From assembly GCA_002633005.1 (NCBI GenBank), contig NMRA01000451.1, positions 1 to 64,000 on the forward strand: DNA of 64,000 nucleotides, written 5' to 3'. Positions 19,689 through 63,922 of the stretch are shown piece by piece. How positions within the stretch are numbered: position 1 is the stretch's first letter; each line of letters begins with the position of its first letter. The translations under genes and the position numbers were made by a program. Under the pieces are notes generated by a model. The model searched no databases, was not told where the DNA came from, and was given only the letters and a program-made list of their open reading frames with translations. The DNA comes from Phoronis australis (lineage: Eukaryota; Animalia; Phoronida).

Positions 19689-19709
19689 CTCCGGCTCCCG
19701 GTCTTGAAC
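19689..19709 (-). CDS. 21-nt repeat microexon, GSRPGAG
   Basis: ttttttatag|GTTCAAGACCGGGAGCCGGAG|gtaagc. Confidence 0.85.
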
Positions 19710-20659: not shown

Positions 20660-20680
20660 CTCCGGCTCTCGGCCCTGAAC
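20660..20680 (-). CDS. 21-nt repeat microexon, GSGPRAG
   Basis: ttcttttgcag|GTTCAGGGCCGAGAGCCGGAG|gtaagc. Confidence 0.85.
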
Positions 20681-33449: not shown

Positions 33450-33464
33450 CTGGTCGTACCGGAG
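33450..33464 (-). CDS. 15-nt microexon, APVRP
   Basis: tctacttcttacag|CTCCGGTACGACCAG|gtaagc. Confidence 0.8.
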
Positions 33465-33876: not shown

Positions 33877-33912
33877 CTTTCGTGGTTTTGGTCGTGGTCG
33901 TGGTTGTTGGAA
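33877..33912 (-). CDS. 36-nt Thr-rich microexon, VPTTTTTTKTTK
   Basis: cttgttttttccgtag|TTCCAACAACCACGACCACGACCAAAACCACGAAAG|gtaagc. Confidence 0.85.
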
Positions 33913-39538: not shown

Positions 39539-39553
39539 CTCGGATAGTCGGAC
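39539..39553 (-). CDS. 15-nt microexon, GPTIR
   Basis: ctctgtttcttgtag|GTCCGACTATCCGAG|gtaagc; flanks homologous to the 33450 exon. Confidence 0.8.
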
Positions 39554-41479: not shown

Positions 41480-41491
41480 CTGAGTATCTTG
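41480..41491 (-). CDS. 12-nt microexon, (T/A)RYS
   Basis: ccttttcttctttttcag|CAAGATACTCAG|gtaagt; strong sites; phase 1-1. Confidence 0.8.
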
Positions 41492-42583
41492 CTGAAAAAG
41501 AAGAAAAGGTAAATTATTGTGGATTACTACTACATATTGTGATAAATTTGATTTCGTGAACATCATCAAATTGCTCATATTTTACATACTGGTCAGTAAA
41601 ACTTGCCGCATAGGTGCATGCATACTTACTGAAAACCTAAAATTAAGTTAACAGCTTTGCTGAAACTTTTGTAATCTTGGCGTCTTATCTACAAAATTAC
41701 AGGGTTTGTGGTTTCATTGCTCAAGATAATATGTACTTTGATAGGTTTGATTTGTGTTCAGTTTATGCGCAGTATGTTTCTGCAGTGCGATCGTAATAAC
41801 GTAAGCGGCACAACATTTGCTATTCAATACAAGTGTGACAGTAAATATGACACTTTCAAAGCACAGACTTCAATCCTGTTGAGGTTGGTTAACTGAATAA
41901 TGGTTCTCTAGCTCTATTCAGACCTTAAGTAAAGGACGACAGGGTAGCAAATTAACATCTTTTAAATTCTTAATCAGCTACCGTAACACGTAACAGAACC
42001 GAATTCTGGCTTATGTTTCATGAAAATTGATTCATTACTTAGTCAGAAATTTTGTATGCAACCTCCGTATCCGCAGGGTTTTTCTAATGTGAACAAGTAA
42101 ATCATGCTATAACTTTGTTGGCGATAGCGTTAACTTCCGAAACTGATGAGAAATATCAAATTATCTTCGACGCCTTGTTAATACCAGATTAAGTTGCTGG
42201 GAACAAGTCGAAAAGTGGCATTTCACGAAACAAACATCTAGGCCAGGACTTTATGTTGTACTCGAAATCGAACTCGAAATTATTTTCAAGTTGTTTGGTT
42301 CTACTTCTTTGCAAAAAAGTAGCAATTGTGCTCCCCTCCAGTATACAACAAATTGTGCTAAATAGTGTCAAGTCCAACTTGTAGCGGTCATGCAGGGCTC
42401 CTCAAGTGCAAACTAATCTTGTACTGTCATCCACATAAGCCATAGTGTATTCGAGTACACACTAACGGTCACACTTATCTCGAATTCTCAGAAATGTAGA
42501 ACAGAAAAAATCAAAAAATAAGTCCGAGTACGAGATTGAGTACAAATATTAGACTCCGGGCTCTGAATTAATATCCTCCGTAC

Positions 42584-43000
42584 TTCTAAGAGGGACACCC
42601 TTGCAAGTATGTCCCTTGTCTTTTTTAAATTTGCACGTTACCTGTTCAAGTAGCATTTGGTGCTGTCAATTGGGTCAATGATACCATACTTGTGCATATA
42701 AAGCGCATTGATGGTAGTTGTAAAATTTTTATGAGAGTCGAAATCGAAAGTAATGGTTTCCGTGGCTTCCAAAAATATTATCCGGATTATCCGCCGCAGC
42801 AAACAAGTCGCTGCCAAGTATTCGGCCAGTCTCTAACTTTTTCGCTTCGATTGGCTGAGGTTAGGCGTAATGGATAAAGGCCATTTAAAAAGGGTCCGTA
42901 TTAATTTTTCTATAGTGCACCAGTTCCGGGGTGAAACTGAAAACAAATAACTTGAGCATGGAATTCGTTGTCGTCGGTTTTTGGATTACCTTCTCTACGT
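42584..43000 (-). pseudogene. Decayed duplicate of the 3' half of the VWA-like exon/ORF at 62975-63390
   Basis: Collinear with 62975-63390, and the flanking intron also aligns (42455-42583 vs 62845-62974); at least two 1-nt deletions and a GAA>TAA stop; donor AGAA|GTACGG retained. Confidence 0.88.
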
Positions 43001-44899
43001 CGCATGATTGGAGTGCAAATCTGAGTTTACTCATTTAATAGAATTGCTTTATTTCCGAGTTGAGTATAGAATATAGATATTAGGCTAAGGGCTCTAACAT
43101 AAGCCTGAATTTTCGTAAATTATAACACCCTTTATGTCGCTTTCAGCTTGGAATGATTCTGACTCAGCTGAAAATTCTGCCTACTGGTAAATCAAAGTTG
43201 TTTTAAGCGTAAAAGTGTGACAAATTTACTTAAAATACATTCTTAAATATTTTGATTGCTCCTGGTAAAATGAGTCACGTTGTAGTATTTAAACCCTTCT
43301 TCGTCATTTGTACTTTCAGAATGAGTGGTTTGGAAGCCCCCTATAAACACGTTTTGGGTGGATTCCCAGATTGTTGATAGAAGGAGACCGCCAGAAAAAA
43401 CCTTGTTGTATTGTTCCATTTCACCTCCTTAATATCTCATGTAGTGACATTTCGCATTCGTTCAACTCTCATCTCACAAGTTTAACCGGACAAAGGTGTC
43501 CCTGTTTCGTTTAAAGTTTTGAAATGCCCCTTGTTAGGACATGTTCAGATTGTATTCAGGGATTCATACAGGATTTCGAAAGTAGGATGTCCAAAACGGG
43601 GTTCCCAATATTTTAGGATGTCCGTGATTCCGACAACAGAATACCCCCACCACCGTGCACCAGCACCTCCCCCACAGTGATTTTTTTACAAAAAATACCT
43701 AGATCAAGACGTTTACATCTGAGTTTTCAAAGTAACCCTCTCTAGCGACTTTTTTACTAAAAAAATGCGTGGACTTAGACTTTTGCGTCTAAATTTATGA
43801 ATACATCCAAGCAGCTTACCAGACAAATGTTAAAGATATTTTAAACGATGAATGCATTTCGCAGATGACGTGTGGTTTATATTTTGGCAGTAGATGTCAG
43901 TATACTGTTCCATATCAAAACAGGAACAATTTCATTGAAATGCATGAAACAGTGCTTAGTTTTAATTACTTATATTAGGTTAGTGTAAACCCTACTTCAA
44001 TCATGTCAGTGAGTTTTTTTAATCTAACTTTTCAGATGTCCAGTTGAGCTAAGAACAGTTGTAAGGTAACTAATTCTTACAATGTTTACAAATGTAGTAT
44101 GACTGCAGTCTAACTCCAGGTTGAAGTTATGTGTATCATTTCGGTGTGGCGAACAACCAGTATAGAGGCATCAGTATGAATTTTAAACTGAATGTCTTCT
44201 TAAAAATGTAACTATTCTCATCTTGCAGGTAATCAGAGCTGTTGTTCGCTCATGTACTTATCTTCTTTGTCACCTGCATCCTCACAATCTGCATCAAAGG
44301 GTTGTGTCTGGTCTATGCTCTATTGCAATTTAAAGTAGACAATAATCCTGACTTCTGTCACCAAAATTAACTTTTCATTTAGACTACGTATCATTAGTAT
44401 GAAATTAATCTCGATTTATTCCTCGATAAAAATAGGTGTGAATTTCGGGCTTGAAAATGTCTAGAAATTTTTTACTGCTAGAGAGAGTTTCTTCATGTTG
44501 ACTTGTCACAGCATACCATTTCATTCATCTGAGATTGTCCCAACCATAATGAACTGCCACTTCCTTGCAAGACCAAAATTATCTCATCTGAATAGCGAAA
44601 AAGCCGAGATCAATTCTATACTGATAAGTGGTTAAAACCAAAAGTTAAGTTGCGTGGATAGAACAGGGTTTATAGCCATAGTAACTGTTCTGTGAAATAT
44701 GCCACTTTATCTCTCTCAGTGTTGGTTTCTTATTGCTTACTTATAGACGATGATAGTATGAACATTGTTTAAGCTTGATAAAACAGTTGTGATAGCTTCA
44801 TATTCATGCAACGGCTGCTGAGAAGCCCTTGGGACATAACCATATTGCCAGGGGCTAAATTTCCAGTCTTAGAACTCTAGGATCCATGTAAACCATAAA

Positions 44900-46068
44900 C
44901 AGCCGATTTCATAAAGGTGGTTTAAAGTTAAACCAGGTTTAAACTGGACTTAGACCAGGTTTAACGATAACCTGCATTTCATAAAGGTGGTTGAACTTTT
45001 AGACCAGTGGTCTTGTAAAACCTGGTTTAACTCCAGTTTAGACCTGGTCTAAGTCAGTTTTCATTTCACCAACGAGGTCTATATTCTTTAGACCTCTAGT
45101 AAGATCTTAAACCATGTTTATTTAACCTTAGACTTGGTCAGACCCAGGTTTAGCTGTTAAATATGCATGGTATAGGTGCAACTGAACGATGCCGCGGTGT
45201 GCAATTGCGACGCAGTTTTAGAGCGAAAATGGACTATTTTCATTATTCAGGTTTACTACGACACGAGATCAAACGTAGCAGGGGCGGATCCAGGATTTTT
45301 TTAAAGGAGATGGGGACGGTCAAGCACTTTTTGAAAGGGGGCACCAAGTCAACAATTTGAAAATTATAGATTTGATATCATTAAAATCAAAGGAAGAAGG
45401 GGGCTCCAGACCCCTTGACCCCCCTGGATCCGCCTATGCGTAGACCAGTACGTGCTGGAGTGTGTCCTGCGGATTCCTCAGAATACGACTGGTCGAGCAG
45501 GTCTCATCGTCGCAGGCCCTACGGATTTGACTTAAGACAGCATCCTCTGATACTTCTGACTGAGTTCCACCTCCACTGTTCTCCTATTCAATGTTGCCGG
45601 GAAGGGGTCTTGCCCCTCCTTTGGCCGCGAAAAATAAAAACTAAAATGACACGGAAATAAATTTGGGCATTTATCATGTTACATCTAATCATGAGCATGT
45701 TCTTTAATGTGTGTGTGTTGAGCACACAAATTACATTTTTCCTCATGAGAAAAGCTTTTACACCTTTGTCGTAAATGTCTGCACTGATTCTACTGGTGTA
45801 TGCCATTCTATACCCACGTGATCAAGGTTTCATTGAAGCACTTCAATAGTTTCTTTGTTGGGTTTACCAAGCTCGACACAGTTGGGTGCCTTTAATACTT
45901 TAAACCTGGTTCTACTGAACCAGCCCCCTGGTGTAGCAAAACCAGGCTTTCAGACTCTTAAACCATGTTAGTGAAATGCAAGTTAGGTCTAAAATTAGAC
46001 CAGGTTTAGGAAGACCATGTTTAAGTCTTCAACCTGGTTTTGTTAAAACACCTTTATGAAATCGGCTG
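44900..46068. mobile_element. Non-autonomous TIR element (PIF/Harbinger-like), copy 1
   Basis: TIR CAGCCGATTTCATAAAGGTG / CACCTTTATGAAATCGGCTG; flanks AAA/AAA; subterminal AAACCAGGTTT palindromic repeats. Confidence 0.85.
45279..45438. mobile_element. MITE nested in the Harbinger-like element
   Basis: CAGGGGCGGATCC...GGATCCGCCTATG with 5-bp TSD CGTAG. Confidence 0.85.
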
Positions 46069-47011
46069 AAAGTGTTCTCCAGTGGCCATCAAAAGTTATG
46101 ATGCTATGAAGATTTAAACTCCGAGTCAAATGACAATATTTGCATTAATTCTTGCATCATTTTTCTAACTTGCAACCTCTCACACTTGTTTATACTCCAT
46201 TCAGTCGATGACATGGGTACGGTTATTATTACTTGTACCCAATGGTGGTTCTTTGCCCTGTATCTTTGGTTTTCGTGTTTCAGTGCTCAATTATATTGTA
46301 ACATTCCACAATCTTTTACACTTATAAGTTACACTGGTACTTAAGTGAGAAATCCAAGAAGTATGCAGTCAGTGATTAAGAAAGTTCTGTACCCCACTGC
46401 CCCTACCTTCCATAATTAGCAGATGCTTGTGAGAAGAACAAGGCGCGCACAAACTTTACACATGACTTCCAGAGGTCAACCAGTCCATTGCCTTGAAGTC
46501 AATGGTCTTGCAATGGCAACAAATGCTAATTTATCTATCTAAAGAAACTATCACTGCTTCAGTGAACAATTTACTCTAGCTTTACGTTGGCAAAGTTGCT
46601 TGACGTGGATATAGACTGCGGTCAATTCAAAAAGACATGTCAATATTTTTCATCATCTTCGTTTATTGTACAATATATAGCTCTGACAGTTTACTTTTAT
46701 ATACGTGAATCAACAATACTTGGTCACTTTTTGCCTACATACGACTCCAAAATTGTGATACAGTACCTGGTTTGTAATTGGAGTCTTCATGGAACTTGGT
46801 TAAGGTTGAATCTATCAGCCTGCACCGTCTGCTTTTGTTGATCCACGTGGTGTTATTTGACTACGTCATTAAAATAAAAGTGATTAGAAGTGAATTTGAG
46901 GCAGGCTAAACTTTGGCACTGGAAATCCATTCTGTTTGTTAATGTGATTATACCATTGCTGTTAAAGCTGCTATAAACCTGCCTTCCTTCAAATAAAGTC
47001 TTCATTTTGAC

Positions 47012-48577
47012 GGCACTTGCTTAATTTTGGTTCGTTCTGAATTATGTCTTTGAATTTAATTTATTAATTTGCGAATTTTCCTGGTTTGAAACCAAGATGT
47101 GTTTGGATTGGTTCAAAAAAGACTCTGGCGAATAACTTTGTGTCCCTGAAAATCTGTTATGGACTAACAAGCCTTTCATGTTTTTGGGAATTAACTTCTC
47201 CACTGATTATAATACAATGCCAGGTATTTTCTTGTGGCAGGCTTTTGGAAATTAAGAAAAATTCTGGGCTCTTTGTCAAGAAGAATTCTTACTGTTTTAG
47301 ATAAAATAACCGTGGTTAACACAATTTTGTTGCCCAAGATTGTTCATTTGCTTCAATCCCTCCCTAGCTCCTTCATTGACATGATTCAAGAATTAGAGCA
47401 AGTTTTTTACTTCATTTGGAATGGAAAGAATGACAGAGTTAGCCGAAACATAATTGTACAAAATCAGGATCATAGTGGTTTAAAAACGGTTCGTGTTAGT
47501 TTTTTATTAAGTCTTTGAAAATATCCTGGTTTAGTAAACTATTCACCTCAAATACCATACATGTACGTTACCTTGAAGAGGCAGTTTTGGGTTGTAAAGT
47601 TGATAACTATTTTAAAATGGGAGACGCTATCCTTAAAATAGATTAAGAAACCTACAATCTGTTGTGGAATGAAGTTTTAAGCGATATAGTGCTCATGCTT
47701 CAAATTTGTGACAAAAAATGAAAATATTAATGTCTCTCCCCTGTGGTATGATTCAAAGATTGAAGTCGGTAGACAATTTATTTTCTACAAGAGCTGGTGT
47801 GAAAAGGGTGTCTATCATGTGTGTGATTTGTTTAATGCTGAAGGTTTTTTTATGTCATACGAAAAAGTGTGTAACAGTTACAACTTTCAACCTCCAATAC
47901 TTGAATTCTATGGATTAAGAGGTGCATCCTTTGCAGCGTACAGGCGTCTTACGAATAGACAAGACAATACCTTTGTACCAAATTTTCCAAGTTATATTTA
48001 TAAAATTTTGCAGAATAAGTCACAAGCAGTAAATATTTATGACACCTTATTACAGTCACTTCAGACAGTTTGTAAATATAAAAAAGTGATCATCTGAGAC
48101 AGATATAAACGGGTTTATTAATAATGTAAATTTTAGTGACCCTGATTAATGGTGGAGAAAAGTAAATAAACTCCCCTTCAATTGTACAAAGGATACAACA
48201 TTGCGATAGTTTGAATACCGCTTAATTCACAGAATATTGCCAGCCAATAAAATTGAAATAGAAACAAGTGATTTATGCTCTTTCTGTGGTGAACACAGTG
48301 AAACTTTTCTCCATCTGTTTTGGGAATGTCGCATTGTCACCAGTTTCTGTTGATCATGCTAGCAAAAAATAAAAAAATTTTATCCAAAAGTTTGTTGAAA
48401 AAATGTCAATTTCCAAATGTTCATAAACTTTATTAAATTACATCCTGAAGAAAATACGGTACTTGTTGACTAGTGATTTAATCTTATTCTTTGTAAATGA
48501 TGTCTACCGTATTGTATTATGTGACATGTAATTATCATGGTAGAGCAAAATAAAAAAAAATAAAATAAGATAAAAAC
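47012..48577 (+). mobile_element. 5'-truncated L1/Tx1-clade LINE
   Basis: LSRRILTVLDKITVVNTILLPKIVH..FIWNGK; CSFCGEHSETFLHLFWEC knuckle; A-rich tail; 13-bp TSD TCTTCATTTTGAC (46999-47011 / 48578-48590). Confidence 0.88.
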
Positions 48578-49722
48578 TCTTCATTTTGACCACATGTTGT
48601 CTCGGCCCATTCGTTAGTCAAATTACAAGTGATTCCTGGAATTAGAAAAAACGACAGTTCGTTATAGCTCAAGCCTCAGCTTATCAAGTTGGCTTGAAAC
48701 GCCATATCATTTTTTCTAGATGATTTTGTTCCCAGCCAAGAAACCCATCCTCACGCAGGTAAAGAAATTTACTGAAGGGAGATTTGAGGCAAAGAATGGT
48801 TTAAATCGAAAGTTTGTTTACTATTTATGAAATGTGGGTTTTGATGCATTACATTTAAATCCTCATCCGATTTACAATATGAAACTAAGAAATGGTTTTG
48901 GGCCTAAATTTTGTTTATTGGTGCCATAAAGTAATCACATTTATCTGAGTACTAAGTTGTAGGCAAAACGAATATATGCATTAGACACATAAAAAGTTGA
49001 CCGCAAGCAAAAGCAGATAAAGCGGTACGATTTGTAACATAACCGTTGTATGGCGAAAATATGTTGGGGAAGTCGCCTTTTGTCGTAGTCAGTACATTTG
49101 TCGAATGCCAGCACATCATTACAGTAGACTTTTTCCAATTCCTCATTTATAAAGAAGACACCAAAAGTCCTGAAACAAAAATAAAATAATACTTTCTTCT
49201 CAGCCACAAAAGAAAAAGCTTCCATTGCCTAATGTACTTCAATAGCTGAATACCTCATAGAATGCACAGTTGGAAATCCATTGTCATGCGTATTTGGTAT
49301 TTGCACTTAAATTTCAAACACTAAAAACTGTCAAATAATGAATTTGTTTTATTGTGTTTTGTTTTGTTTTGTTTTGTTTTGTTTGCCTAATCCCGGGCTT
49401 TATTATGAACCTGCCAATAATCTTCAGAGAGGCTTTAATAAATATTCATGTCAAAGGCATACAGTCAGGGCCGTAACAACGTTTCCACTTAACAATTACC
49501 AAGAAAATGTTTAATACTATAAGCACTAATACATATTAGAAGACTGGGTATAATTTGTACACATTTTCTCAATAAGTAACAATATGAGTATATTTTCAGA
49601 TAATTTATTTATTTTCTAAATTGGGTTTTAAATATTGGTCTGAAACATGTATGTGGATTGTAAGATCAAATATCTGCCTTAAGTTACTTTTATGAAAAAT
49701 ACCCTGGGGCACTAGTACTTAA

Positions 49723-52700
49723 GCATCAGTCCACGGATCCACCGACCACTGTACAGCCAACAAGCGGCAAGGTGGGGGGTCAGCCATTCAGATCCATGTT
49801 TAGTCTGATAAATCACATTAGGGATGAGAGAAAATGGGTGAAGTATGACACCACAAAGTTTGGTGGTTTAGGAGATACAAGGGAAGTGTTCTGGGGGGCA
49901 AAATGAGGCAATTTCTTGGTGTGGAATGAGTCATTTTTTACCAAATTTTCTACTCCAGTTTCTGCTTCAAACAAAATCGTTTCTGAACAATTTTGATATC
50001 ACATGATAGGTTAATGACCAATGTCAATAAAAACGGCACCGACACAGCAATATCGGTTACCATGGTAACACTGGAACTGTTTCCGTGGAGGTACATTTCC
50101 GTCTTGTGAAAAACCAGCAGTAAGGTGTACCCTTATAGCGAAGCTGCCCCCGCGAAAAAACTAAAAATAATAACATAGACATGTAGAAGACTCCATGCCA
50201 TTGAAATAAGTACAATAAAAACTTTGTCAGCCCTTCAGGCAGGCTTGGTAATAGTTGTCTGAATTTCACTATTTTCTGACTGCGTATGTGTATTTGTCAT
50301 GTTAAACCAGTCACTAGTTGTGCGCTCTTTCTACGCATTAATATGCCGTGGTATAATACAACAATTAAAAAAATTGGTTTGCTTAAATGTTTTCAATGAG
50401 TTTTAAGGACACTAGCATTTTCCAATAAAATATGAAATTATACTAAATTTGTTCATCCAATTCGTCTAAATACCAAACTAGCTTACAATGCGTTAGTTGA
50501 ATTATGGCTGACCTAAAGTGCGAGTTTGCGAATTTATATATTTATCTGGCACTGCCAGTCGCATCGAATGTGGTATTTCTACAAATTGCGAAGAGAAACA
50601 ACTTTGGAAACTCTTGGGAAATGCGCAAGGTATAGAGCGAGACATTTGAGCACCTTATAAGAGTACGTGGAGCTGATGTGGAGGTGGAACGTGTCCTCCT
50701 GAGAAGTAGTCTTTCTCATTGTCTGCCTCGGAGGCAGGTGTGCAAGAGCTACATAATCTACCGTATTAGATTCACTTAACCGAATCATCGATACAACACT
50801 CGAGATATATTGGCGTTGCCAAAGACACTTAGAACATCCACTGCACACCAGAGGAGAAATCTGATAGAGGTCTGAAAAATGACCAAAGACGTTAAGTCAA
50901 GGTTCAACGCCCTGCTTCGTGTGAGCTCAGGTAGGAATCACTAAACTCCAGGGTCTGACCCTGAGGAATATTTTTAGAAGCACGTCATTCATGCAAAAAT
51001 GCTTTTATTGACACACCGTGATTGCTTATAACTTGGGCCTTATTGCTTAATCATATCTTATTCAAATGTGTTGATGTTTATGCAACTACTTGTATACATT
51101 GGCATAGAAAATAGGTAGTCATCATAACTTTTCATAACAACCACCAAATGTGTAACATGAACTCCTTTTAGAGACTAGGAAGTATTTTTGTGTCCAATGA
51201 TTTTCTGCGATTATGGAGTTAATTAAACATGCTAAACCCGTCAAAGTTATTAGTGCCTTCACTTTAGCTTGGTATTCATATTTTCTGGGCCGAAATAGCC
51301 ACATTAAATTCAATATGTTTAATTTATCATTAATACAATTTTAGAAATCAGGAAAGGCTTATGCTGAAGTAGTGGCTTCAGCTGAAGTTGGAGACTTGCC
51401 GATTATTAGTAAAGGTTGGGTATGGAAAAGTTCACAACCAGCAAGAAGGTACCCTTCTGGACAACTAAGTGAGGGGGCTAGAGAGAGGCCGAAAAGTCTA
51501 CTCCCAGAAGATATGTCAAAGAGAATTTGTAGCTTGAGGAACGAGTTGGGGAAAAAGTATTTGCCAAAGATTACTGGCTTATACCACAACAGGTCCAAAG
51601 TAATTTGTTGAGGCCACTTTCAGCAAATGTAGGGAAACTGGGACAGAGGAAGTGGAGTATGCATTGAAAGAGGCAATCTTCGATTGTCAAGGATGTAGCA
51701 TTGTAAAAATTCAAAGGGAGGAAACAGTACAGTGGCTGGACCTGTAAATACTCTGGCTGATCTGCTAAATCCAGTGGGGGCATTATTGTGTGAGCACAGC
51801 TACATGTATGTAGGGAAGTAGGCTTGTGTGTTGTCGCAAGCTTGGCTTGCACCAGAACTGCTTGTGTGAACAGCACAAATCTAAAATTTACCTAGTCTAA
51901 GACTGAATTTTTGTCCAGGCACGGATCATGATCCTGGGCCACATGGTAATGGTACATTGTTCATTTTGTTTAGCCACTGGATGTTTCGATCTGACAGGAT
52001 TTCTCAGTGTCGCCATCACATTTAGATGATTTCTGACCACTGTACTATTCCTTTTCCTAGAAGATGCGTAATTGATCTGAATTTATGTTTCCGCATTTTG
52101 TTTACCATTATAGATTTTTGTTTGTAAATGGGTATATATAACTGAAATTTTTAGACCCTGTTGCAGGCTGGTTTTGTTAACTTATCTTTCTGCCTGGGTT
52201 GTAAAGCCATATTCTGTCCAGGAGGTAATACGTTTTGATTTAGACCATTTACCTCTATAAACTTTGCTCAGTTTGTTCCTTATCCAGATGGGAAGTGATT
52301 TCTGGAATTTTAGCGAATTGACAGTTTGCTATTCCTTGAGACCATGCTGTGTGTATAAAATCGCACACTATTAGTCTGGTCTCTAGCAATTGCATATTGC
52401 CAGATCTTTCAAAGTTCTGAAATTGCCTGGAAGCAATACCTATTTTGTGTTGGTAAAATGTCTAAAACAAAAGTTGTTTTATGTGATTTTAGGCGATTAT
52501 ATGTCCATTTCAAATGATTTTTTGTTGGAGTACTGAAAAGTATTGGCACATTAGCTCTGGTGGCTCCTTGTTTTTTTGGCGAATTGACCATTGTATGATT
52601 CCCATGGGTAATTTTGTTACTGGTCTAGTATGTATGTACAACTGTAATCGTAGGGCAATTGTAATGCAAACCGTGTTGCAAAAGTATTTTTTCACGACCA

Positions 52701-54633
52701 TTTCATTGTAAAATGCTGCCTAATTGGAACCGACAAGCCAATTTTTCATTTTGTGGTGGTTAGTTTTGACAAGAAAATTGATGTGGTAAATACAGCTACC
52801 TCAAGTTTGTGAAGAAGAGATTTCCAGTGTTGTCAGCAATATTGCAAAATCACTTTTTCGCAGTTAGTCTACATCACCTTAAATGTAATTCCCTGACTTT
52901 ATGAGCTTTGTGTGGTTGACTCTGTCCTGTAGCAATTAGAGTGTTGAAAAGATCTAGACGGTAATTTTTTATTAGAGTCATAACATTTGCACTTTTGACT
53001 GTACAGTTATCTTTGCATTATATTACGAAAACATACTTTGTAGTACACAAGTCTCTGGTTCGTATTATATTTTTTTCACCAGGAATATTTTCAACTTAGA
53101 TGAGTTGTCTGTGAGGTAGGCAATTTTCAAATAAGATAATGAATAAAATTGTCAAACATTGTTTTATTTTTACATGTGTGATCTTCCAATAAGTGATTAC
53201 TTTTAAAAAACCTGTGCAGAATTTGATTTTACTCTTCATTTGAAGGATAATAAATCCATGAACCTGCATTGTCTAGAAATTTTACTCAAACTACATATTA
53301 GAGAGTTGGGGATTGGAATCTTAATACAACAGAGTCTACACCCGTACCATGAGCACTACAACACAATACACGGATATAAAAATTTGGTGTTTATGTTCCA
53401 CGGAAGGATTCGTGTGCACGGTAATAGTTACTAAGGTGCGTGGTCATTGTTTGTGGATACTTTAGGATTCCTTTTCTGCGGTCATCCACGGGAAACCTGG
53501 TCGCATAGAGAACAATAGATTAGCATCTTCATTGTTCCCGTTGTTATAATAAAGATACAATGACGAGCACTTATCGGCAACGGTCGGATGTACGCAAGGT
53601 TCTACGTGTATATCCATGCGACCTGTGTTGTTACATCCAACAATGACACAACAAAGGAAAACAATGATAGGACCGCTGGCCAAAAAATATGCGATGAGTT
53701 GCCATGGACAGTGGTGGAGTTTGACTTGTCATTCGAATGTTTTTAGAGAACTGCAAACCCGGTATTTTGTCAGGAAAATTTCTGCGGTCTTTTGTTTTAA
53801 GTCGTGGGAAAAATTGCGGTCATGTAACCAAACTTATCATTCATTTGATATTACAATGCATTACATGAACATTTGATCAACAGAAAATCTGACTTGAGTA
53901 TGTTTGAAGAAATACCCATGAGGAAATTGCAAAGTAAAATAACTGTAAATCAAAATAACCTACATTTGTCGAGTTCATGTCTAACCCTGTTCACTGTGGA
54001 GGACATAATCGGCATTTTACAAAATGGAGCCATGTATGGTATTTAGGGGTACTATAGCCCTAAGTGATCAGTAGTAAAACGTTCAAAGCATTCAGGAGGA
54101 ACTAACTTGTTGCAAAATATCGAAAAACATGAAGGGCAATCGGATTTTACGGTGCTCACGCATCGATTTCAGATATATGAAAAATTTCTTTTTTAATACA
54201 TTTGAGGTGCACAAAATATATAACTAATAAACTGGCTGACAAAGTTTTTATTTCATGAAATAAAAGTCACATGTTTTGTCAACATTTTGGCATAACAGTG
54301 GGGCAGATTTGGTACAGCAGTGTACTGAACACAACCTCAAAATGGCATAACGGGGGGGCAGTGTATTAAAACTACTAAATGAGGGTGGTAAATCGGAATT
54401 GCGTTTCAAGACATCTGTGTAACAATGTACAGGCACCACTAAACAATGCCAAGTAAATAATAAATCGATAGCTTTCATTCAAGGAAAAATATGAACTATA
54501 GAAAAACGCAATATTTTGATTAAATATTTTACCGCTGTTTATAGATACCATAGGTCTACCTATGTGCCAAATTTCGTGAAAATCGGCTCACCCCACCTTG
54601 CCGCTCATGGCTGGTGCTCTTGTGGACTAGTAC
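49723..54633. mobile_element. Kolobok-like TTAA-flanked element with decayed cargo
   Basis: TTAA at 49719-49722 and 54634-54637; imperfect inverted ends sharing AGTCCAC..CAGCCA..GCGGCAAGGTGGGG..AGCC. Confidence 0.55.
51100..52900 (-). mobile_element. Highly decayed LINE (APE-region) fragment
   Basis: Minus-strand HKTTFVLDILPTQ resembles the APE TLDLILTN motif; many stops. Confidence 0.3.
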
Positions 54634-56185
54634 TTAAATTCGTCGTCACAATTACCGTACTGCCCCTCTAACTCTATAGTTACCACCACTTTCGAGGGGA
54701 ACCTAAAGCGACGAAACAGGGACCCCTGTTTCATACAATGTCCTAAGTCTACCTTATTAAGGTCAGTGCCGGGAATCCCCGGTTGCTACAAATTTTGATT
54801 CATCCCCTCACGGATGAGATGTGAACCATATTTTGTCCAGAGCCCCAAGCAATAGCTTATTTAGCTAAATGGATAATAAGGACTACATACAGTACTAATC
54901 GTGAATAAATGACAGTATACCAACAACCCTGTCGCTATTCCCAAACAGCACACTCATCCTAGTACCGTTACACCAGTTAGCTTTTTTGTAATTCCCAAAG
55001 CCTTTTGACTGTTCAATTGACACACAACAACAATGACCAGGTTGGTCACAATTCAGTTTTTATTGCTAACTGCTACAGAGTCAATACTAAGCACCATTAT
55101 GAAGTGAAACAACGTTCTGACACAGACTACACAGATGTGGATCTAGGGCGCTGCAGGAAGTAGCCAGAGCTTTGGAAGGAAAACGATAAAAGGTTATTCC
55201 AAATGTCATGCCAGCAATGTTTTCTTTCATAGAGCCACATGTGTGCATAGTGAGAGTGCTTAACTGGATTTCCAAAACTGTCTTTATAAGAAATAGTCAC
55301 GGGCATGAGTAAAATACAGGTGGCAGGTCGCTTCTTATACATCTTTTTACTGTAGTGGATACTTCTCAGCATCTCCCGTAGGTACACCATGGTGACAATC
55401 ACAGCTGATGATAGCCACCACCACCTACATGTAGTGAGCACACCAAGTTGAATACAATGACCTCATTCTCAGATATACTTATGTGAGGCTGGAAAAAACA
55501 AACCTCACTATTTTTGAGTTCAACATGAAAGGGATTGTTGTTTTCAACAACATTCTTATTGGTGTCAGTGATACTTAATGTACTTTATCAAAGGTTTTCA
55601 ATTATGTCACCTATTAAACTTGTGAGATTCCTGGTGAAAGAAAACAACAAGAAGGGACTTGATAACACAAACGTTTTGTAGAAACCGCTTCTGTTGCTTG
55701 AGGAAACGACAGTGCTTCTTGTCTTGAATTCAAAACATACCTGCATGTGAAGAGATCGAACAGTGACTGTCACCCAAACCCATTCCTCTGCACATGGCTC
55801 AGAGTTGTAATCATGTTGCAACTGTTGCTGGACTCGTGTTGCCTGTTGCTGATGCAACGGTGATGCGCACTACGATGATCCATTAAAAAACATGACAATC
55901 ATACAAAATGCCAGTCTGAGCAGTACATGGATAACATTGATTTATACTTTCCATAGGATATACATTGATGCAAAAGTGTGAGTGTGCCTCAAATTGAAAC
56001 TTCACTGTTATAACTGTTTCTAGGCCCATTCAGCCGATTTCATAAAGGCGGTTTAAAGTTAAACCTGGTTTAAACTAGACTTAGACCAGGTTTAAAGATA
56101 ATCTGCATTTCATGAAGGTGGTTTAACTTTTAGACCAGTGGTCTAGTAAAACCTGGTTTTACTCCAGTTTAGACCTGGTCTAAGT

Positions 56186-57961
56186 AACTGTGATATATAT
56201 TTATTGAAGGATACACAGAGCATACAAAGAAATAATAACAAACCCAGAAACCGCGAAGCATTATATCTGGGTTGTAAACAATTCATCAATGAAACTTATA
56301 TACATAGAGGTATATACACTTAAGTAGTATCTAAAATAAGTATTCCCATACTTAGACATGCTATTACAGATACATAAAAACAAAAATATGTACAGATTCA
56401 TGTAGGGAAATCGGATGCAACAATATTGATAAACGGTACAAAAAAATTTGCTAACGTTGCTTAGGAGGAATTCGTTGAGAACGAAGTCAAGGTTAGGACT
56501 ACCATTCAGTAATAATGTAACTCTAGTAGGGATATTATTACAAGAATTGAGAGCGTTAACAATTGATTGGTTATCATTGAGTGCACGAAAGAGTGAGTCT
56601 CTCAGGCATTCGATGAGGTGACATTTGAAGAAAAAATGAGGATAAGATTGAAGGTCACCACATCTACAGTTTGGAGAGACATTACTAAAGTTGTGCCTGA
56701 ACTTGTCAGAGTTGAGGAAAAGGCCACATCTTGATCTGTACAATGCTATTTCGTTATCGCAGGTAAGGGAAAATTGAGTCAAGGGAGTTGAGTTATCAAA
56801 ATTATGAAAAACAGTTCTAAAATTATTTTTTATACTCGTAAAAGAGTTGCTTTCCTTAACAGAAACTGGAAGTGAATTCCAGTTGTTGATGCACATCATG
56901 ACTGTAGACCTTCTGAATGCCTGACTGAACGACGGAGGAATTGCATATGGGGTGGAGGATCTCAAATCACTACGATGGCCTTGTCTAGTATATTGTTGAC
57001 ATTGTTTATTACCTTGAAAGTGAATGTGGTCATGTGAAGATTGCGTCGAGTAGACAGTTTGGGCCACTTGAGACTATTCAAAACCTTAACACTATTGGAT
57101 CCCCTGTAAGCTCCGGTTATGAGTAAGGCGGCTTGATACTGTAACTTCTCCAAATGTTGGAGTGCACCCGTATTGGCAGACAGATATATAATATCACAAT
57201 AATCAATGTGTGGAAGTACAAAGGATTTGAACAAAACTTCTAAATGTGTAAATTCAGATGACGAGAGACAAGCTTAAGTGGGTTAATTAGTTCCTGAGTT
57301 TTTTGTACGAGCTCCCGAACATGAGGGGTGAATGAGAGTTTTTCATCTAACAGTATACCCAGATGTCTGTGCGACTGTTTTCTAGGAATGATTTCATCAT
57401 TAAGTTTAAGGTCATAAGACGGGTCAACAAGGAAGAGAGCATTAATAGATTTGAAGAAGGTGAGGTCAACACTTTTTTCTGGTTTAAAATTCATTCTCCA
57501 TTCTTGTGACCAATAGCTTAGTTTATTTAAGTAGCGTTGAAGCTGCAAAGAACATTCAGGGCTGCTCCCTACGAAGGGGTAAAAAAGCGCCGTGTCATCT
57601 GCATAAAGGTTTGTGCTACATGACAGGTAAGGTTATTAATATAAACCAAGAAGTGAAGAGGGCCCGATACGCTACCCTGGGGTACACCTGCGTTTACAAA
57701 TCCAGGAGGGGATAAAGTTGAAAGTACGCCGTCGAAACGAACACTGTATGTTCTTTCGGAGAGATATGAGGTGATCATGTTTAAAAGATTACCAGTAATG
57801 CCATAGGATCGAAGTTTGTGAAGTACATGTAGAAGGTCGTGAGGGACACAGTCGAAAGCAGAAGCTATATCTAGAAAAATGGACCTGACACTCTCGCCCT
57901 GTGAAAATGTAAATGAATCTCATGTACTATTTCAACAAGTTGTGCCACGGTGCTGTTCTAA
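56186..57961 (-). mobile_element. 5'-truncated CR1/L2-group LINE
   Basis: GVPQGSVSGPLHFLVYINNL, HRHLGILLDEKLSF, FVLPHIDYCDIIY, CRCG..HFFFKC; AATAAA near the 3' end; 8-bp TSD GTCTAAGT (56178-56185 / 57962-57969). Confidence 0.9.
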
Positions 57962-58198
57962 GTCTAAGTCAGTTTTCATTTCACCAACGAGGTCTATATT
58001 CTTTAGACCTGTATTAAGATCTTAAACCATGTTTAACTATAGGCTTGGTCAGACCCAGGTTTAACTGTTAAATATGTCAGACTTGCATGGTATAGGTTCA
58101 ACAGTATGATGCCGCGGAGAGCATTTGCAACGCAGTTTTAGAGCTAAAAAGGAATATTTTCAATATTCAGTTTTACTATGACACAAGATCAAATGTAG

Positions 58199-58351
58199 CA
58201 GTGGCGGATCCAGGATGTTTTAAAGGGCGGGCGGTAAGGACTTTTTGAAAGGGGGGGCCAAGTCAACAACTTGAAAATTATAGATTTGGTATCACTAAAA
58301 TCAACGGAAAAGGGGGGCTCCGGACCCCTTGACCCCCTGGATCTGCTTATG
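58199..58351. mobile_element. Nested MITE, equivalent to 45279-45438
   Basis: CAGTGGCGGATCC...GGATCTGCTTATG at the same position in the host element. Confidence 0.85.
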
Positions 58352-60052
58352 TCCCCAGTGCTGTTCAATATCTACACCTTCCCACTCGCCAGACTGAACT
58401 GCGCTGACTGCCGACTTAGCACCTTTGTAGACGACATGCTGCTGTCATCGCAAGGACAAACACATCTTGAGATTCTCCACAAAGCACAGTCTTCATTGAT
58501 GAAAATCTGCGAGTTTTGTGCTACCAGCGGAATGAGCTGCAATGGAGACAAATGTGAAGCTCTCTTCTGTACTCTGGACAATCGCCTCAGTGTTGATGAT
58601 TTCCCTTGCCCTACATACGATGGGAAGTTGATTACAACATCTGACCACATGCGTCACTTGGGTGTAGAACTTGACCGCAGGCTTAACTTCACAACTCAAG
58701 TTAACAGTATGATCAGCCGTGCCAACAGAGGAATCAATGCCCTTAGGGCTGCGGCTGGTCGGAAGGCGGAGGAAAGGCACCTCGTCATGCTTGATAAAGC
58801 CCTGGTCACTTCGGTCTTCGACTACGCTCTCCCCATGATCAACATCAGTAAAAATCAAATCAACAGACTTGAGAGGCTCCAGAACATTGGTCTTCGCGTC
58901 ATCACTGGATGCACAAGATCTACGTCAGTCACAGCATTAGGTTACCTTGTCGGTATTCCCAGCATTGCAGACAGACAATCCCTTCTACAAGGTATTACTG
59001 TAGCCAAGGCTGTTCAAAGCCCCTTCCATCCATTACACAGTCAAGTGAAGACTGCACTTGACAGGTGCGTGAACCCCGTCCCTGCAACAGAAACTTATGG
59101 ACTTCGTCCTAGACCTTTTCGCAATGCCTCCCACCAAAGACTTAGCAGGTGCTCGTGGACTGTCGCTGCTGTTAATGCAACCATGGGTCTCATCGGTGAA
59201 CACATGATCGCGCAAGATGCTGCTTGGCTGCCAGTACAAGAACTTGGTGAGGAACAAAATGTCATCATTGCTTTCAACAGAGAAGCTCGGGAATGGCCTC
59301 CTGGAGTAGCCCAAGTATTGTGCCGTCAGCAATGGCGTGATCTTGGCGGTATTAATGCCATCATTGTAGCAACTGATGGATCCTTCGATGGTGAAACTAA
59401 TCGTGCGGGATGGGGTTATCAAATACGCTGTGCTAACAACGTCATTGCGGAAGGTAGTGGTTGCCACCATGTATACACAAGCAGTACGCGGATGGAGTTT
59501 GAGGCTATACAACGTGCCCTAACCAAGCTGTCACTCCTAGACCTGGAGAATCACACCATTATCTTTGCCACCGATTTCATGGCTGTGTTGATGAAAGTTC
59601 AATCTGGAAACCTCCCAGCCAACTGGGGTGTCTTCCGATCACGCCACCCTCATCATGTAGTGATCTGGTCTTTCGTACCTGGCCACGCCGGTGTCTTGAT
59701 TAATGAGCGTGCAGATTACCTCGCTGGCTCATGCACCACCAACCAACCCCTTTACTTATATTCGGCTGACGTTAAGCTGCTGGCCCACAAACGCAACCTC
59801 GATCAGACTGCATCCCAACTGGCTGAGTTCAATGATGGCAGCCGCCTGCTCGAAGCCGGTATTACTTATGGCCATGCTGCGAAGAGTCACAAGAAGAGCC
59901 GTGCCCGAGTGCTGTCTAATCAAATGCTTACAGGCAAGGTCAGCTCTGGAGTTCTGCGCCTTCTGCTGTCACGGGGATGGTCTGGGGATGGGATTAATGC
60001 ACCAGCATATCCCCAATGATCCTGTCCGTGACAGGTATTACAGGTATTACAG
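58352..60052 (+). mobile_element. Young 5'-truncated LINE with RT C-half and RNase H (I-group, Ingi/Nimb-like)
   Basis: Open frame to 60019: SPVLFNIY, FVDD, RHLGV, TDGS..GWG, ME.EAI, TD, VPGHAGVLINERAD; (ACAGGTATT)n tail; 7-bp TSD GCTTATG (58345-58351 / 60053-60059). Confidence 0.92.
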
Positions 60053-62187
60053 GCTTATGCGTAGACCAGTACTTGCTGGGGTGTGTCCTGTGGATTTCTC
60101 AGAATACGACTGGTCGAGCAGGGTGTCATCGTCGTAAGCGCTACGGATTTGACTAAAGACAGCCTCGTCTGATTGTTATGACTGAGTTCCACCTCCACTG
60201 TTCTCCGATATAATGTTGCCAGGAAGGGGTCTTGCCCCCCCCCCCTTTGGCCGCGGACTTAAATAAACACTAAAATGACAAGGAAATAAATTTGGGCATG
60301 TAACATGTTACATCTAATCGGGAGCATGTTGTTTAATGTGTGTGAGTTGGGCACATAAATTACAGTTTTCCGTATGAGAAAAGCGTTTAGATGTTTTTCG
60401 TAAACGTCTGCACTGATTCTACTAGTGTATGCCATGGTATACCCACGTGATCAAGGTTTCAATGAAGCACTTCAAGAGTTTCTTTGTTGGGGTGCCTTCG
60501 ATACTTTAAACTTGGTTTTACTGAACCAGCTCCCTGGTCTAGCAAAACCAGGCTTTCAGACTCTTAAACCATGTTGGTGAAATGCAAGTCAGGTCAAAAT
60601 TTAGACCAGGTTTAGAAAGGCCCGGTTTAAGTCTAAAACCTGGTTTTGTTAAACCGCCTAGATGAAATCGGCTGTTTCAGTTTAGTTCAGGTGTTAACTT
60701 GTCAAAAAATGGTGCTGGAAGTCTGATAACAGCCGACATTCAAGGCGGACAGATGTTTTTCGAAGCACTCGTGAGGCCTTCTGTCCCGTAAACTGATTGA
60801 TTTTGTTTTTGATAAAATGAGTCTGGAAGGGCCAAGTCGCATACTCAAATTCCGAGAAGAGGTGCATAAGATAGAAGCAAGCACTTTCATCAACCTTCCC
60901 GTCCTCAGACCCATATTTACCCAATCAAGAACATACCACCGATAGTACATAACCAATTAAAAATACTGAGTCACCTGAGATGTAAACTACTCAACCTTTA
61001 TTAATGCTCCTACCGATCTGCCTTTGGCTGCACCCCTTTGCCTTTGAGGAGGTCCCATTCATGGTATATTATCATGTGACAATGCTATGACCACTCTCAG
61101 GGTCCAGCAATTTAAGAACCAGATTTCTCCACTAAATAACAGGCAGCCCGATTCTAACGTATGGTTTCGTTTGGTCTGAATTTTCTCCCAACAAGCTTCG
61201 GTCTACCAACACTACCCAAGTTTGCTAGCATATAAACCTGAGGTTGTCATCGTTCATCCACTGGTTTGTGTTCAAGTGGACTAGCTAGCTGACTAGTAGA
61301 GTATAGGATCCCTTATGATAAACGATGCTTTTCTTAATAATATGGCAATGAAAATCCACGAATAACTTTGCAATTAAATTCTGAAAATTGCCAGCAGGTA
61401 GAAATCCAATCCACGACCATCGAGTGACAAGCAGGGTATATCTAATCACAGTAACAATACACTCAATTTTAGTAACAACATTGACAGACCTAAGCTACAC
61501 TACAGATTTTATTCGACCCGAGCACAAGAATTGCTATCAAATTTAGTACGTAATTTCCCCCGGGTAATGGTTTCATCTAATTCTAAGCGTAATAGTTAGA
61601 CTGTTAAGCTCATCAAAATGTTCAAGAAACGAATAAGTTACCTAGTTAAGGCAAACTTCTCTTCTTGAAGCACTAACGGAAAAAGCTGACTATTTGTCTC
61701 CAGTTTCCAAACGATAAAACAGCACAGCATTATGGGTAACTTTGCTTTGGTTTGTTTTCATCGCGCAGAAAATAAAAAATAAAATTAAAGTGTCTGCAAG
61801 CAGTAGATCGACCTCATACTTATGAAAAGCTCTAAATAATCATCAGAGAGTATGTTTCAATGGTTTCTGTGCAGATTCATTGCGCTTTTAAAAGGTATCA
61901 TATGACTAAGTTACTGAGAAAAATCCAAACCGTCGCATTTCAAAAAAAAACACCTGGGTCAGATGTGGAAGGTTAACACACAGTGATACCTAGCCAGCCA
62001 GCTAGCTGTATGAAGACTGTCGTCAAAATACAGCTAGGTACCACTGTGTGGTTTTCTTCCCTAGACCCCGAAATTGCACACAGACAGGGTAATTCTGCTC
62101 GTCACCTCGCCGTGAAACTTGTAACAACATGTAAAGCTAAAAACCGGACGGGGTGCATGCAAAATCTGGGAATCAACCGACACTCAC

Positions 62188-62620
62188 CTTGCCCGTTACA
62201 GCCGTTTAAGTGAAAAACAATGCAATAAACAATGCGTAACTCTCCACCTTTTCTAACAATGAAAAGTATGTCGTCGTTTTGAAAACAGTGCGCTCGTGTC
62301 ACGCGCACGCGCCATTTCCTGAATTGTTGAGACATATTTCAGGAGATGATGATAGCTTGGCAGCAGCAAAATTTCTTCTGAAATTCGGTTTTTCGGTATC
62401 ATAATTCTGAAAACTTATAATGAAGTGAAACCAGTTCCCAATAATTTGTTGTGACGTGTACGCAACGTCGTAAAAGAACAACAGTTGAGTGAAGAATGGG
62501 CGAAAAAAGAAACTGGCCAATAGGTGACGCAATATTTCATGGTGCCGAAAACCGTTGCTAAAGGTCGCTCCACAACTTTAGCAGTGGAATAACGGTAGAA
62601 CGCCATTTTTTTCAACACCG
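62188..62620 (-). promoter_or_regulatory. Candidate promoter and first exon
   Basis: CCAAT (62517), TGACGCAA CRE-like (62525), CGCGCACGCGC NRF1-like (62302), CGCCATTTT YY1-like (62601), strong donor AAG|GTGAGT at 62188. Confidence 0.35.
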
Positions 62621-62957
62621 TTGAATAATTTAGTTTACTCAAGGAAGACTGTAGTTTTTAGTGACACTTATTTTGTGCCAGATTTTATTTTACCACTTTT
62701 TTAACCAGATCGGTGCAAAGCTGTATACTAAATACATGTATACAGCTTCGCAATGATGTGGGTAAACAAGTATCAAGGCTAGTGGTACCTAGCTGTTACG
62801 ATAGCTTTCATACAGCTTGCTGTTTAACCGGATTCATCAACATAAGCACACTAACAATGACACTTATCTTGAATTCGCACAAACGTAGTACACCAAATAT
62901 TAAAAAATGAGTCCAAGCTCGAGTTTGAGTACAAAGATGAGATCATGGGTTCTTGAG

Positions 62958-63740
62958 TTAGTATCGTGCCTTACTTCTAAGAGGAACACCCTTGCAAGTA
63001 TGTTCCTTGTCTTTCTTTAACTCTGCCTTTTGCGTGTACAAGTAGCATTTGGTGTTATCAATTTGGGCGTTGATACCATATTTGTGCATACAAAGCGCAT
63101 TGATGGTCGTCGCAAACTTTTCCGTGAGAACCGGGATCGTAAGAAACGGTTTCCGTGGCTTCATAAAACTCAGTGGCTCATTTTCTGCTACAATAGTCAA
63201 GTCGCTGCCAAGTAATCGGGAAACCTCTATACTTTCCTTTTTGAGTGGATGTGGGAAAGTGAAATCGACAAATGCCAGTTCAAAAGGGTTCGTACTAATC
63301 TTTCTATAGTTCACCTCATCTCGATCGAAATAGAAAACAAATAAATTGAGCAAGAATTTCGCTCTTGTCGATCTTTGTGTTATCTTCTCCAATTCATTGC
63401 GACATTTTGTGAATTGTGCTGACGAAGATATATCATCCCTATGAAATGGTTCATGTAAGAGTTTATCCAGTGTTTCTGACATGGAGTATGACTCTATTGG
63501 CGCGATTGGTTCCAAGTCGTAACCACATCCATAAATTCCAAATTTAACGTCTCCCTTGTAGTTTAGAGATTCGATGACTTTTCTTATAAACAGCGCAATG
63601 TGGAAGTGCCATTTCTTAAATCGTACAGCGCCTCTTGCTGTATCGACAACTATGAAGACATCTGCGCCTAAGCATATTGGTTGAGGTAAAGCATGTGCCG
63701 AAAGATGCAAAAGCACGATGACTATCGTTTCAGTATACAT
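62958..63740 (-). CDS. Signal peptide + divergent von Willebrand factor A domain protein (260 aa unspliced, or a 766-nt phase-1 first coding exon at 62975-63740)
   Basis: Hydrophobic N-terminus IVIVLLHLSAHA; C..ADVFIVVDT..F..FIRKVIESL..VKFGIY VWA pattern; closing TINALC; donor AGAA|GTAAGG five codons before the stop. Confidence 0.78.
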   Translation of the reverse strand: MYTETIVIVLLHLSAHALPQPICLGADVFIVVDTARGAVRFKKWHFHIALFIRKVIESLNYKGDVKFGIYGCGYDLEPIAPIESYSMSETLDKLLHEPFHRDDISSSAQFTKCRNELEKITQRSTRAKFLLNLFVFYFDRDEVNYRKISTNPFELAFVDFTFPHPLKKESIEVSRLLGSDLTIVAENEPLSFMKPRKPFLTIPVLTEKFATTINALCMHKYGINAQIDNTKCYLYTQKAELKKDKEHTCKGVPLRSKARY

Positions 63741-63922
63741 TGTTCATGAACATAACAAAACATGTTGTCAACACATCTCCTATCCATGAAGCAGAAACCG
63801 TATTCATGATGACACGTCGCGTAAATCAAGCGAAGAAACGCGGATCGAAAAGAAGAAATGTGATTTGTGGAACACAAGCAGACCAATTTCCGAATGACTC
63901 AAAACCATAGAACAAACATAAG

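What the first reader, a model, noticed from the sequence alone, without database searches (positions are those of the whole stretch)
41480..63740. VWA-like head exon, present as one intact and one dead copy, upstream of the microexon stalk
Seen in sequence: the 766-nt signal+VWA segment ends in a phase-1 donor (AGA A|GTAAGG), exactly compatible with the first microexon (...PLR-TRYS...). A frameshifted duplicate with the same donor position lies ~1.1 kb upstream of that microexon. Inference: the full product may be VWA - mucin/Gly stalk - TM, an adhesion or recognition receptor layout. The tandem head exons resemble clusters where variable first exons splice to a shared constant region (as in clustered protocadherins and UGT1). 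More head exons may lie beyond the window. The link needs a ~21-kb intron and is unproven.
Basis: partly seen in the sequence, partly recalled or inferred. Interest (0 to 1): 0.7.

Follow-up and report, generated by a model that had tools for sequence, protein, structure and literature searches.

The report
Orphan VWA-like receptor with microexon stalk
RNA reads show that one large first exon is spliced across 21.5 kb to a chain of tiny exons, likely making a fast-changing cell-surface adhesion protein with no known relatives, while the second copy of that exon is a broken, half-length relic, so the window shows no protocadherin-like choice of heads.

Summary
In two of three raw RNA runs the minus-strand head exon (ATG 63740, donor 62975) is covered about 85-155 deep, and 72 and 48 reads run from its donor into microexons 41491, 39553 and 33912. 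Ten 3n, phase-1 microexons and a last exon give a 372-aa frame: likely signal peptide, VWA-like head, Thr/Pro then Gly/Ser stalk, one membrane helix, 13-aa tail; exons 5-12 rest on sequence only. VWA is likely but unproven: no Pfam hit; Atlas 0.85-0.88; the 12 best structural matches are VWA folds but Z is at most 4.2; the MIDAS motif is lost. No relatives were found in 1.84 billion representatives. The second copy (42584-42995) holds only codons 118-255, has 3 frameshifts, 3-4 stops, a weakened donor and no 5' half, so it cannot be an alternative first exon. dN/dS between the copies is about 1.1, a hint of fast evolution. More heads upstream are not excluded: only 260 bases are visible there. 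Verdict: real, uncharacterised receptor gene with an unusual exon layout; Pcdh/UGT1 reading not supported inside the window.

The parts
62975..63772 (-). Exon 1: short 5' leader, ATG 63740, likely signal peptide (aa 1-17), VWA-like domain (about aa 23-217), small two-Cys segment; ends in phase 1
   Evidence: Depth 86-155 in X1 and 55-127 in X2 over 63005-63741, first mate on + only, 0 in X3; molecule ends at 63761 and 63772; near 0 above 63809; ORF
41492..62974 (-). Intron 1, 21,483 nt, holding the dead head copy and retroelement remains
   Evidence: Junction reads; RT and RNase H matches at 57243-60016
42584..42995 (-). Dead, 5'-truncated duplicate of head codons 118-255; 3 one-base gaps, 4 stops in the head's frame (one beside a gap), donor GTACGG; homology runs on into the intron to 42458
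41480..41491 (-). Microexon 1, 12 nt (TRYS)
   Evidence: in junction reads; strongest splice sites of the scan
39539..39553 (-). Microexon 2, 15 nt (GPTIR)
   Evidence: in junction reads
33877..33912 (-). Microexon 3, 36 nt, Thr run (likely O-glycosylated)
   Evidence: first 3 bases in the junction-read consensus
33450..33464 (-). Microexon 4, 15 nt (APVRP), likely duplicate of microexon 2
   Evidence: sequence only; flanks 33408-33521 match 39497-39610 at 73%
20660..20680 (-). Microexon 5, 21 nt, Gly/Ser unit 1
   Evidence: sequence only
19689..19709 (-). Microexon 6, 21 nt, Gly/Ser unit 2
   Evidence: sequence only
19369..19389 (-). Microexon 7, 21 nt, Gly/Ser unit 3
   Evidence: sequence only
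18632..18652 (-). Microexon 8, 21 nt, Gly/Ser unit 4, weaker donor GTAAAT
   Evidence: sequence only; found by eye through likeness to its neighbours, missed by the scan
17624..17644 (-). Microexon 9, 21 nt, Gly/Ser unit 5
   Evidence: sequence only
17253..17273 (-). Microexon 10, 21 nt, acidic Ser-Gly site (DSGEE), possible glycosaminoglycan attachment site
   Evidence: sequence only
16171..16319 (-). Last coding exon: N-glycan sequon, predicted membrane helix (aa 341-359, about 16269-16213), basic stop-transfer residues, 13-aa tail, TAG
   Evidence: sequence only; hydropathy peak 2.67 over 19 aa, best elsewhere in aa 31-300 is 1.11

Best explanation
This is one 12-exon gene whose single working first exon is spliced over 21.5 kb to the first three microexons, and which is predicted to continue through seven more to a membrane anchor, giving a likely 372-aa single-pass adhesion or recognition protein with a VWA-like head, while the second head copy is a dead relic. 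Likely working: the head binds an outside protein partner without a metal ion (MIDAS motif lost); a sugar-coated Thr/Pro rod and a flexible Gly/Ser linker hold it off the membrane; the 13-aa tail has no evident signalling motif, so it would act as a tether or co-receptor. All ten stalk exons are 3n and phase 1-1, so stalk length can change by exon duplication (shown for five 21-nt units) or by skipping (untested) without breaking the frame. The head was once tandemly duplicated with its donor and intron flank; the far copy works, the near copy decayed.
For: Shown: strand-specific expression and junction to microexons 1-3; open 372-aa frame with GT-AG at all 11 introns; microexon excess over shuffles; five 21-nt exons 15-19 of 21 identical with homologous flanks; relic truncated and broken. 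Inferred: VWA fold from Atlas (all listed hits VWA, 0.85 and 0.88), strand/helix order of a weak model, the 12 top rows of 48,161 chains all VWA-type folds (fold labels partly recalled), and Cys23/Cys217 flanking the domain as in VWF A domains (recalled). Fast evolution: no relative at E 0.001 in 1.84 billion representatives or among 470 and 1,218 candidates; dN 0.28, dS 0.26 between head and relic, ratio 1.07, bootstrap 0.63-2.07.
Against: Exons 5-12 and the membrane anchor are not joined to the head by any read seen here. VWA evidence is weak piece by piece: no Pfam match, no PDB sequence match to a VWA, models at pLDDT 42.7 and 40.5, Foldseek nothing at E 0.001, best Z 4.2 with rmsd 3.7 over 103 residues, Atlas scores under its 0.9 line with 120-142 shared features. 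No ligand, tissue or function is known. Only 260 bases upstream of the ATG are visible. dN/dS rests on 131 codons of one pair, one of them a pseudogene.
Confidence: 0.6

Rival explanations
1. Variable-first-exon cluster, as in Pcdh, UGT1 or chelicerate sDscam: further intact heads lie upstream of the window, each with a promoter, and splice to the same stalk and anchor; the 42.6-kb copy is one relic among several heads.
For: Signal plus whole domain in one large phase-1 first exon, as described for UGT1 (PMC1885805 passage); a tandem duplication of it did happen; UGT1 clusters hold relics (same paper); the two copies are 20 kb apart, so a third would fall outside the window; this head is silent in X3, which another head could explain.
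Confidence: 0.17
2. Polymorphic self/non-self or gamete recognition receptor, as in Hydractinia Alr2, with the relic serving as a donor of sequence to the head.
For: Orphan status and dN/dS near 1; the four read differences visible in coding exons all change the protein: I22R in 105 of 105 and 111 of 111 reads, a 3-nt deletion at 63704 in 21 of 87 and 30 of 99 reads, and two changes in microexons 1 and 2 in the X2 consensus; Alr2 exons are shuffled with adjacent pseudogenes (PMC8282982 passage). X3 could carry an allele under 90% alike.
Against: No conversion tract between head and relic: best windows 38 of 40, 55 of 60, 86 of 100, p 0.07-0.19. Only 40 of 415 difference rows were shown, so no pN/pS can be given. 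X1 and X2 both match the window's head closely. The short tail offers no evident signalling motif.
Confidence: 0.13
3. The main product is secreted or ends elsewhere: the head and first microexons splice to another last exon, and the Gly/Ser exons and membrane exon belong to a minor form or another gene.
For: Read evidence stops three bases into microexon 3; a 12.8-kb intron separates microexons 4 and 5.
Against: All downstream exons share strand, phase 1-1 and strong sites and give one open frame ending in a textbook type I anchor; no other start exon or coding exon was found between them.
Confidence: 0.1

Closest known systems
Clustered variable-first-exon genes (protocadherin alpha/gamma, UGT1; PMC1885805, passages read)
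   Same: Signal peptide plus whole recognition domain in one large first exon, spliced to small shared downstream exons with the membrane anchor; a relic copy sits in the array.
   Different: Only one intact head is seen; those clusters have several near-equal-length exons, each with a promoter. Here the anchor and stalk come from microexons and the head is VWA-like.
CD46 / membrane cofactor protein (PMC2118878, abstract read)
   Same: Type I layout: head domains, Ser/Thr/Pro-rich O-glycosylated stalk from small exons, membrane helix, basic anchor, short tail. Closest match in design.
   Different: Head is VWA-like, not four SCR modules; ten stalk exons of 12-36 nt; skipping of stalk exons is established for CD46 and untested here; no sequence likeness.
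Schistosome micro-exon genes, MEGs (bioRxiv 10.1101/2023.06.21.545858, passages read)
   Same: Run of ten very short 3n exons between long introns; fast evolution; lineage-restricted.
   Different: MEGs are secreted, made mainly of microexons and specific to Schistosomatidae; here microexons give 204 of 1,119 coding bases, between a folded head and a predicted membrane anchor.
VWA-stalk-TM receptors: apicomplexan TRAP, ANTXR1/2 (architectures recalled; both appear only as weak rows, Z 3.2 and 3.0)
   Same: N-terminal VWA fold held off the membrane by a stalk and one helix.
   Different: No TSR or Ig-like domain, MIDAS lost, no acidic Trp-bearing or long tail, no detectable sequence likeness.
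Hydractinia Alr2 (PMC8282982, passages read)
   Same: Fast-changing single-pass invertebrate protein with a neighbouring pseudogene copy of ectodomain sequence.
   Different: Ig-like domains there; extreme polymorphism and gene conversion are shown there and not shown here.

Membership tests
Variable-first-exon cluster (Pcdh/UGT1 type) | Signal plus recognition domain in one large first exon spliced to downstream constant exons | tested here: met
   766-nt coding exon, junction reads, molecule ends 21-32 nt above the ATG
Variable-first-exon cluster (Pcdh/UGT1 type) | Two or more intact variable exons of similar length, each with its own start (within the window) | tested here: not met
   One intact head; the other lacks codons 1-117 and is broken
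Variable-first-exon cluster (Pcdh/UGT1 type) | Further intact heads upstream of the window | not testable with these tools
   No genome is held; 260 bases above the ATG are visible
Variable-first-exon cluster (Pcdh/UGT1 type) | More than one head spliced to the same constant exons in RNA | not tested
   Reads were laid only on 62000-64000; none on the relic or the stalk
VWA domain superfamily | Match to a Pfam VWA profile | tested here: not met
   0 families for the whole exon and for the domain alone
VWA domain superfamily | Rossmann-like VWA fold | tested here: inconclusive
   Atlas 0.85/0.88, all listed hits VWA; 12 top VIA rows VWA-type, Z 3.6-4.2, rmsd 3.6-5.2, 98-115 residues aligned; models at pLDDT about 41-43; Foldseek nothing at E 0.001
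VWA domain superfamily | Metal-binding MIDAS, D-x-S-x-S after the first strand (motif recalled; not present in all VWA domains) | tested here: not met
   Residues 33-37 read D-T-A-R-G
Schistosome MEG | Ten or more very short exons, mostly multiples of 3 | tested here: met
   10 exons of 12-36 nt, all 3n; 3 of 10 seen in reads, 7 of 10 from sequence
Schistosome MEG | Secreted protein made mainly of microexons | tested here: not met
   204 of 1,119 coding bases; predicted membrane helix
Schistosome MEG | Isoforms by skipping of central exons | not tested
   The 30-letter junction consensus shows exons 2-4 in order, agreement 0.92 and 0.84; it cannot show minor skipping or anything further down
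CD46-like receptor with spliced STP stalk | SCR/CCP head modules | tested here: not met
   No Pfam family; alpha/beta head
Membrane proteoglycan | Ser-Gly near a cluster of acidic residues (PMC8418075 passage) | tested here: met
   Ser320-Gly in D-G-D-S-G-E-E-D; the stricter nematode motif E/D-G/A-S-G is not matched
Membrane proteoglycan | Glycosaminoglycan chain actually attached | not testable with these tools
   Needs glycoproteomics; the same paper warns that motifs alone are ambiguous

The most novel reading that the evidence does not exclude
An invertebrate recognition receptor diversified on two axes at once: a tandem array of fast-evolving VWA heads, each an alternative first exon (further intact heads upstream of the window), and a MEG-like stalk whose ten in-frame microexons are skipped in combination to set reach and glycan load. 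That would be an independent invention of the protocadherin layout with a VWA domain, joined to microexon-tuned spacing.
Probability: 0.12. Interest if true: 0.8.

Novelty: new variant of a known kind. Interest (0 to 1): 0.45.

Why it matters
It is an expressed gene that annotation by homology would miss or split: no detectable relatives, a 21.5-kb first intron and ten exons of 12-36 nt. It shows a MEG-like microexon run building the stalk of a likely membrane receptor in an animal genome, and it records the first step of variable-exon clusters (tandem duplication of a signal-plus-domain first exon) ending in loss rather than in choice. If more heads are found upstream, it becomes a candidate self/non-self or gamete recognition locus.

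Tried and rejected
Stand-alone VWA gene ending at TAA 62958: rejected, 72 and 48 reads splice at 62975 and depth falls from 151.6/86.3 (63005-63071) to 6.3/2.1 (62871-62937) in X1/X2. Relic as an assembly artefact: rejected, its stops are substitutions and it is 24% diverged. Relic as first exon: rejected, no 5' half by blastn, local DNA alignment or six-frame protein alignment against shuffles, and no signal-like ORF on the minus strand of 42996-48000. Relic as in-frame internal exon: only a 36-nt piece behind a purine-only acceptor. Junction reads coming from the relic: unlikely, it is about 84% alike over the last 100 exon bases, under the 90% line, and coverage runs on over the 5' half that it lacks. 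Gene conversion: no significant tract; one 100-nt window of low identity, p 0.01, one of six tests. A second membrane exon in the window: none. Homology searches blank; earlier findings blank. No RNA holder was listed by the index; X4 contigs did not cover the head; neither is used as evidence. Foldseek on two weak models gave nothing at E 0.001. Literature searches (listings only) gave no paper on such a gene; the library lacks most subscription papers.
Full report
Observation. The finding lies on the minus strand. The head ORF starts at ATG 63740 and reaches a phase-1 donor after 766 nt, at 62975. The first microexon, 41491-41480, continues the frame. A duplicate of the head lies at 42584-42995, 1,093 nt from that microexon. 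No genome is held for this window, so nothing beyond 64000 could be read.

The long intron is real. Four runs with the same species label were listed and laid on 62000-64000, about 18-19 in 100 of each raw run being read. X1 and X2 cover 63005-63741 at 86-155 and 55-127 reads deep, with the first mate almost only on +, which in usual stranded libraries means RNA of the minus strand; X3 and the X4 contigs give 0. At 62975, 72 reads of X1 and 48 of X2 leave the stretch, and their 30-letter consensus is microexon 41491-41480, microexon 39553-39539 and three bases of 33912 (window pieces printed). Molecule ends at 63761 and 63772 in X2 and near-zero depth above 63809 make the head the likely first exon; a rarer upstream exon is not excluded, because 317 smaller loose-end rows were not shown.

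Gene model. A splice-site scan with an approximate, hand-set matrix found nine of the ten microexons; the tenth, 18652-18632, was found by likeness to its neighbours. As a control, the scan inside the gene gave 10 sense candidates, all multiples of 3 (nine of the model and one at 32378 with an in-frame stop), against 1 antisense and a mean of 1.07 in 30 shuffles. Twelve exons give an open frame of 372 aa with GT-AG at all 11 introns (299 to 21,483 nt): a hydrophobic N-terminus, the head, a 68-aa stalk (19 Gly, 10 Thr, 8 Pro, 7 Ser), a membrane helix at aa 341-359 followed by basic residues, and a 13-aa tail. Five 21-nt Gly/Ser exons are 15-19 of 21 identical and share intron flanks, so the stalk grew by tandem exon duplication. 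Ser320-Gly sits among acidic residues, the usual setting of a glycosaminoglycan site (PMC8418075, passages), but misses the stricter nematode motif.

Is the head a VWA domain? Probably. Against: no Pfam family, no VWA among 4 weak PDB sequence matches, single-sequence models at pLDDT 42.7 and 40.5, Foldseek nothing at E 0.001. Such Z values alone mean little; the uniform ranking is the signal. Cys23 and Cys217 bracket the domain as in VWF A domains (recalled). The metal-binding motif is lost: D-T-A-R-G at 33-37. No relative was found among 470 and 1,218 word-sharing candidates or 1.84 billion representatives at E 0.001.

The second copy. It covers codons 118-255 and 126 intron bases, 312 of 412 and 98 of 126 identical, with three one-base gaps, four stops in the head's frame (one beside a gap and so uncertain) and donor GTACGG. 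Its 5' half is not in the window by three searches against shuffles. It cannot start a protein. Differences fall evenly on codon positions (37, 31, 30 of 135); dN 0.28, dS 0.26, intron distance 0.26; ratio 1.07, bootstrap 0.63-2.07, 1 in 100 resamples under 0.6. With one dead and one well-conserved branch a ratio near 0.55 would be expected (my reasoning), so the living head seems weakly constrained or diversifying; this rests on 131 codons of one pair. No conversion tract was found. Whether the relic is transcribed, or intact in other individuals, was not tested.

How it likely works. A cell-surface tether or co-receptor: a metal-free VWA-like head binds an outside partner, a glycosylated Thr/Pro rod and a Gly/Ser linker set its reach, one helix anchors it, and the short tail is unlikely to signal alone. 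Shown: expression, strand, the head-to-microexon joins, duplication history, death of the near copy. Inferred: full chain, fold, glycosylation, function. Expression in two of three raw runs suggests tissue or stage limits, or a very different allele in X3.

Comparison. In design it works like CD46, a type I protein with a Ser/Thr/Pro stalk from small spliced exons (PMC2118878, abstract), and like VWA-stalk-TM receptors (recalled), but it is a member of neither. It shares the run of 3n microexons with schistosome MEGs (bioRxiv 10.1101/2023.06.21.545858, passages) but not their secreted, all-microexon build. It shares the large first exon and a relic with UGT1/Pcdh clusters (PMC1885805, passages) but lacks a second working head in the 47.6 kb seen. 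Alr2 (PMC8282982, passages) is a model for the polymorphic reading; the four read differences visible in coding exons all change the protein, but only 40 of 415 difference rows were shown. Five searches (listings only) found no paper on this gene type; some searches served to find the comparison papers. No supplements were read.

Verdict. Observation confirmed and strengthened; the variable-head reading is unsupported inside the window and open beyond it. New variant of a known kind; interest 0.45; boldest open reading 0.12 likely, 0.8 if true.

Noticed in passing
window 63753-63730, minus strand: A 7-codon upstream ORF (ATG at 63753 and 63747) overlaps the main ATG out of frame and lies inside the short leader implied by molecule ends at 63761/63772; it could damp translation.
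   Followed up: no
window 63704, 63676, 41480-41491, 39539-39553: Read differences: in-frame 3-nt deletion in the signal peptide (21 of 87 reads X1, 30 of 99 X2), I22R in all reads of both runs, and two amino-acid-changing differences in microexons 1 and 2 in the X2 consensus.
   Followed up: partly
window 32378-32337, minus strand: 42-nt segment with strong splice sites and an in-frame stop inside intron 5, antisense to an RNase H remnant; a possible poison exon.
   Followed up: no
window 20674 and 19383, minus strand: Weak second acceptors 6 nt inside two Gly/Ser microexons would give in-frame 15-nt forms lacking the Ser.
   Followed up: no
window 28447-28566: 69% copy of the intron stretch upstream of the Thr exon (33989-34107), with no matching exon after it; possibly a decayed stalk duplication.
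   Followed up: partly
window 58238-60019 (+), 57243-57919 (-): Retroelement remains in intron 1: a 593-codon open frame with RT and RNase H matches, inserted beside a broken RT on the other strand.
   Followed up: partly
window 62000-62740 and 63914-64000: Dispersed repeats beside the head exon draw reads on both strands from all runs; the 63914-64000 repeat recurs at 44891 and 56031.
   Followed up: no
window 8582-13877: Broken, partly duplicated retroelement-like frames downstream of the gene (weak RT match at 11459-11992; 84-86% internal duplications).
   Followed up: no
window 14754, 14056, 13890, minus strand: Nearest polyadenylation-type hexamers lie 1.4-2.3 kb below the stop codon, so the 3' UTR may be long.
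   Followed up: no
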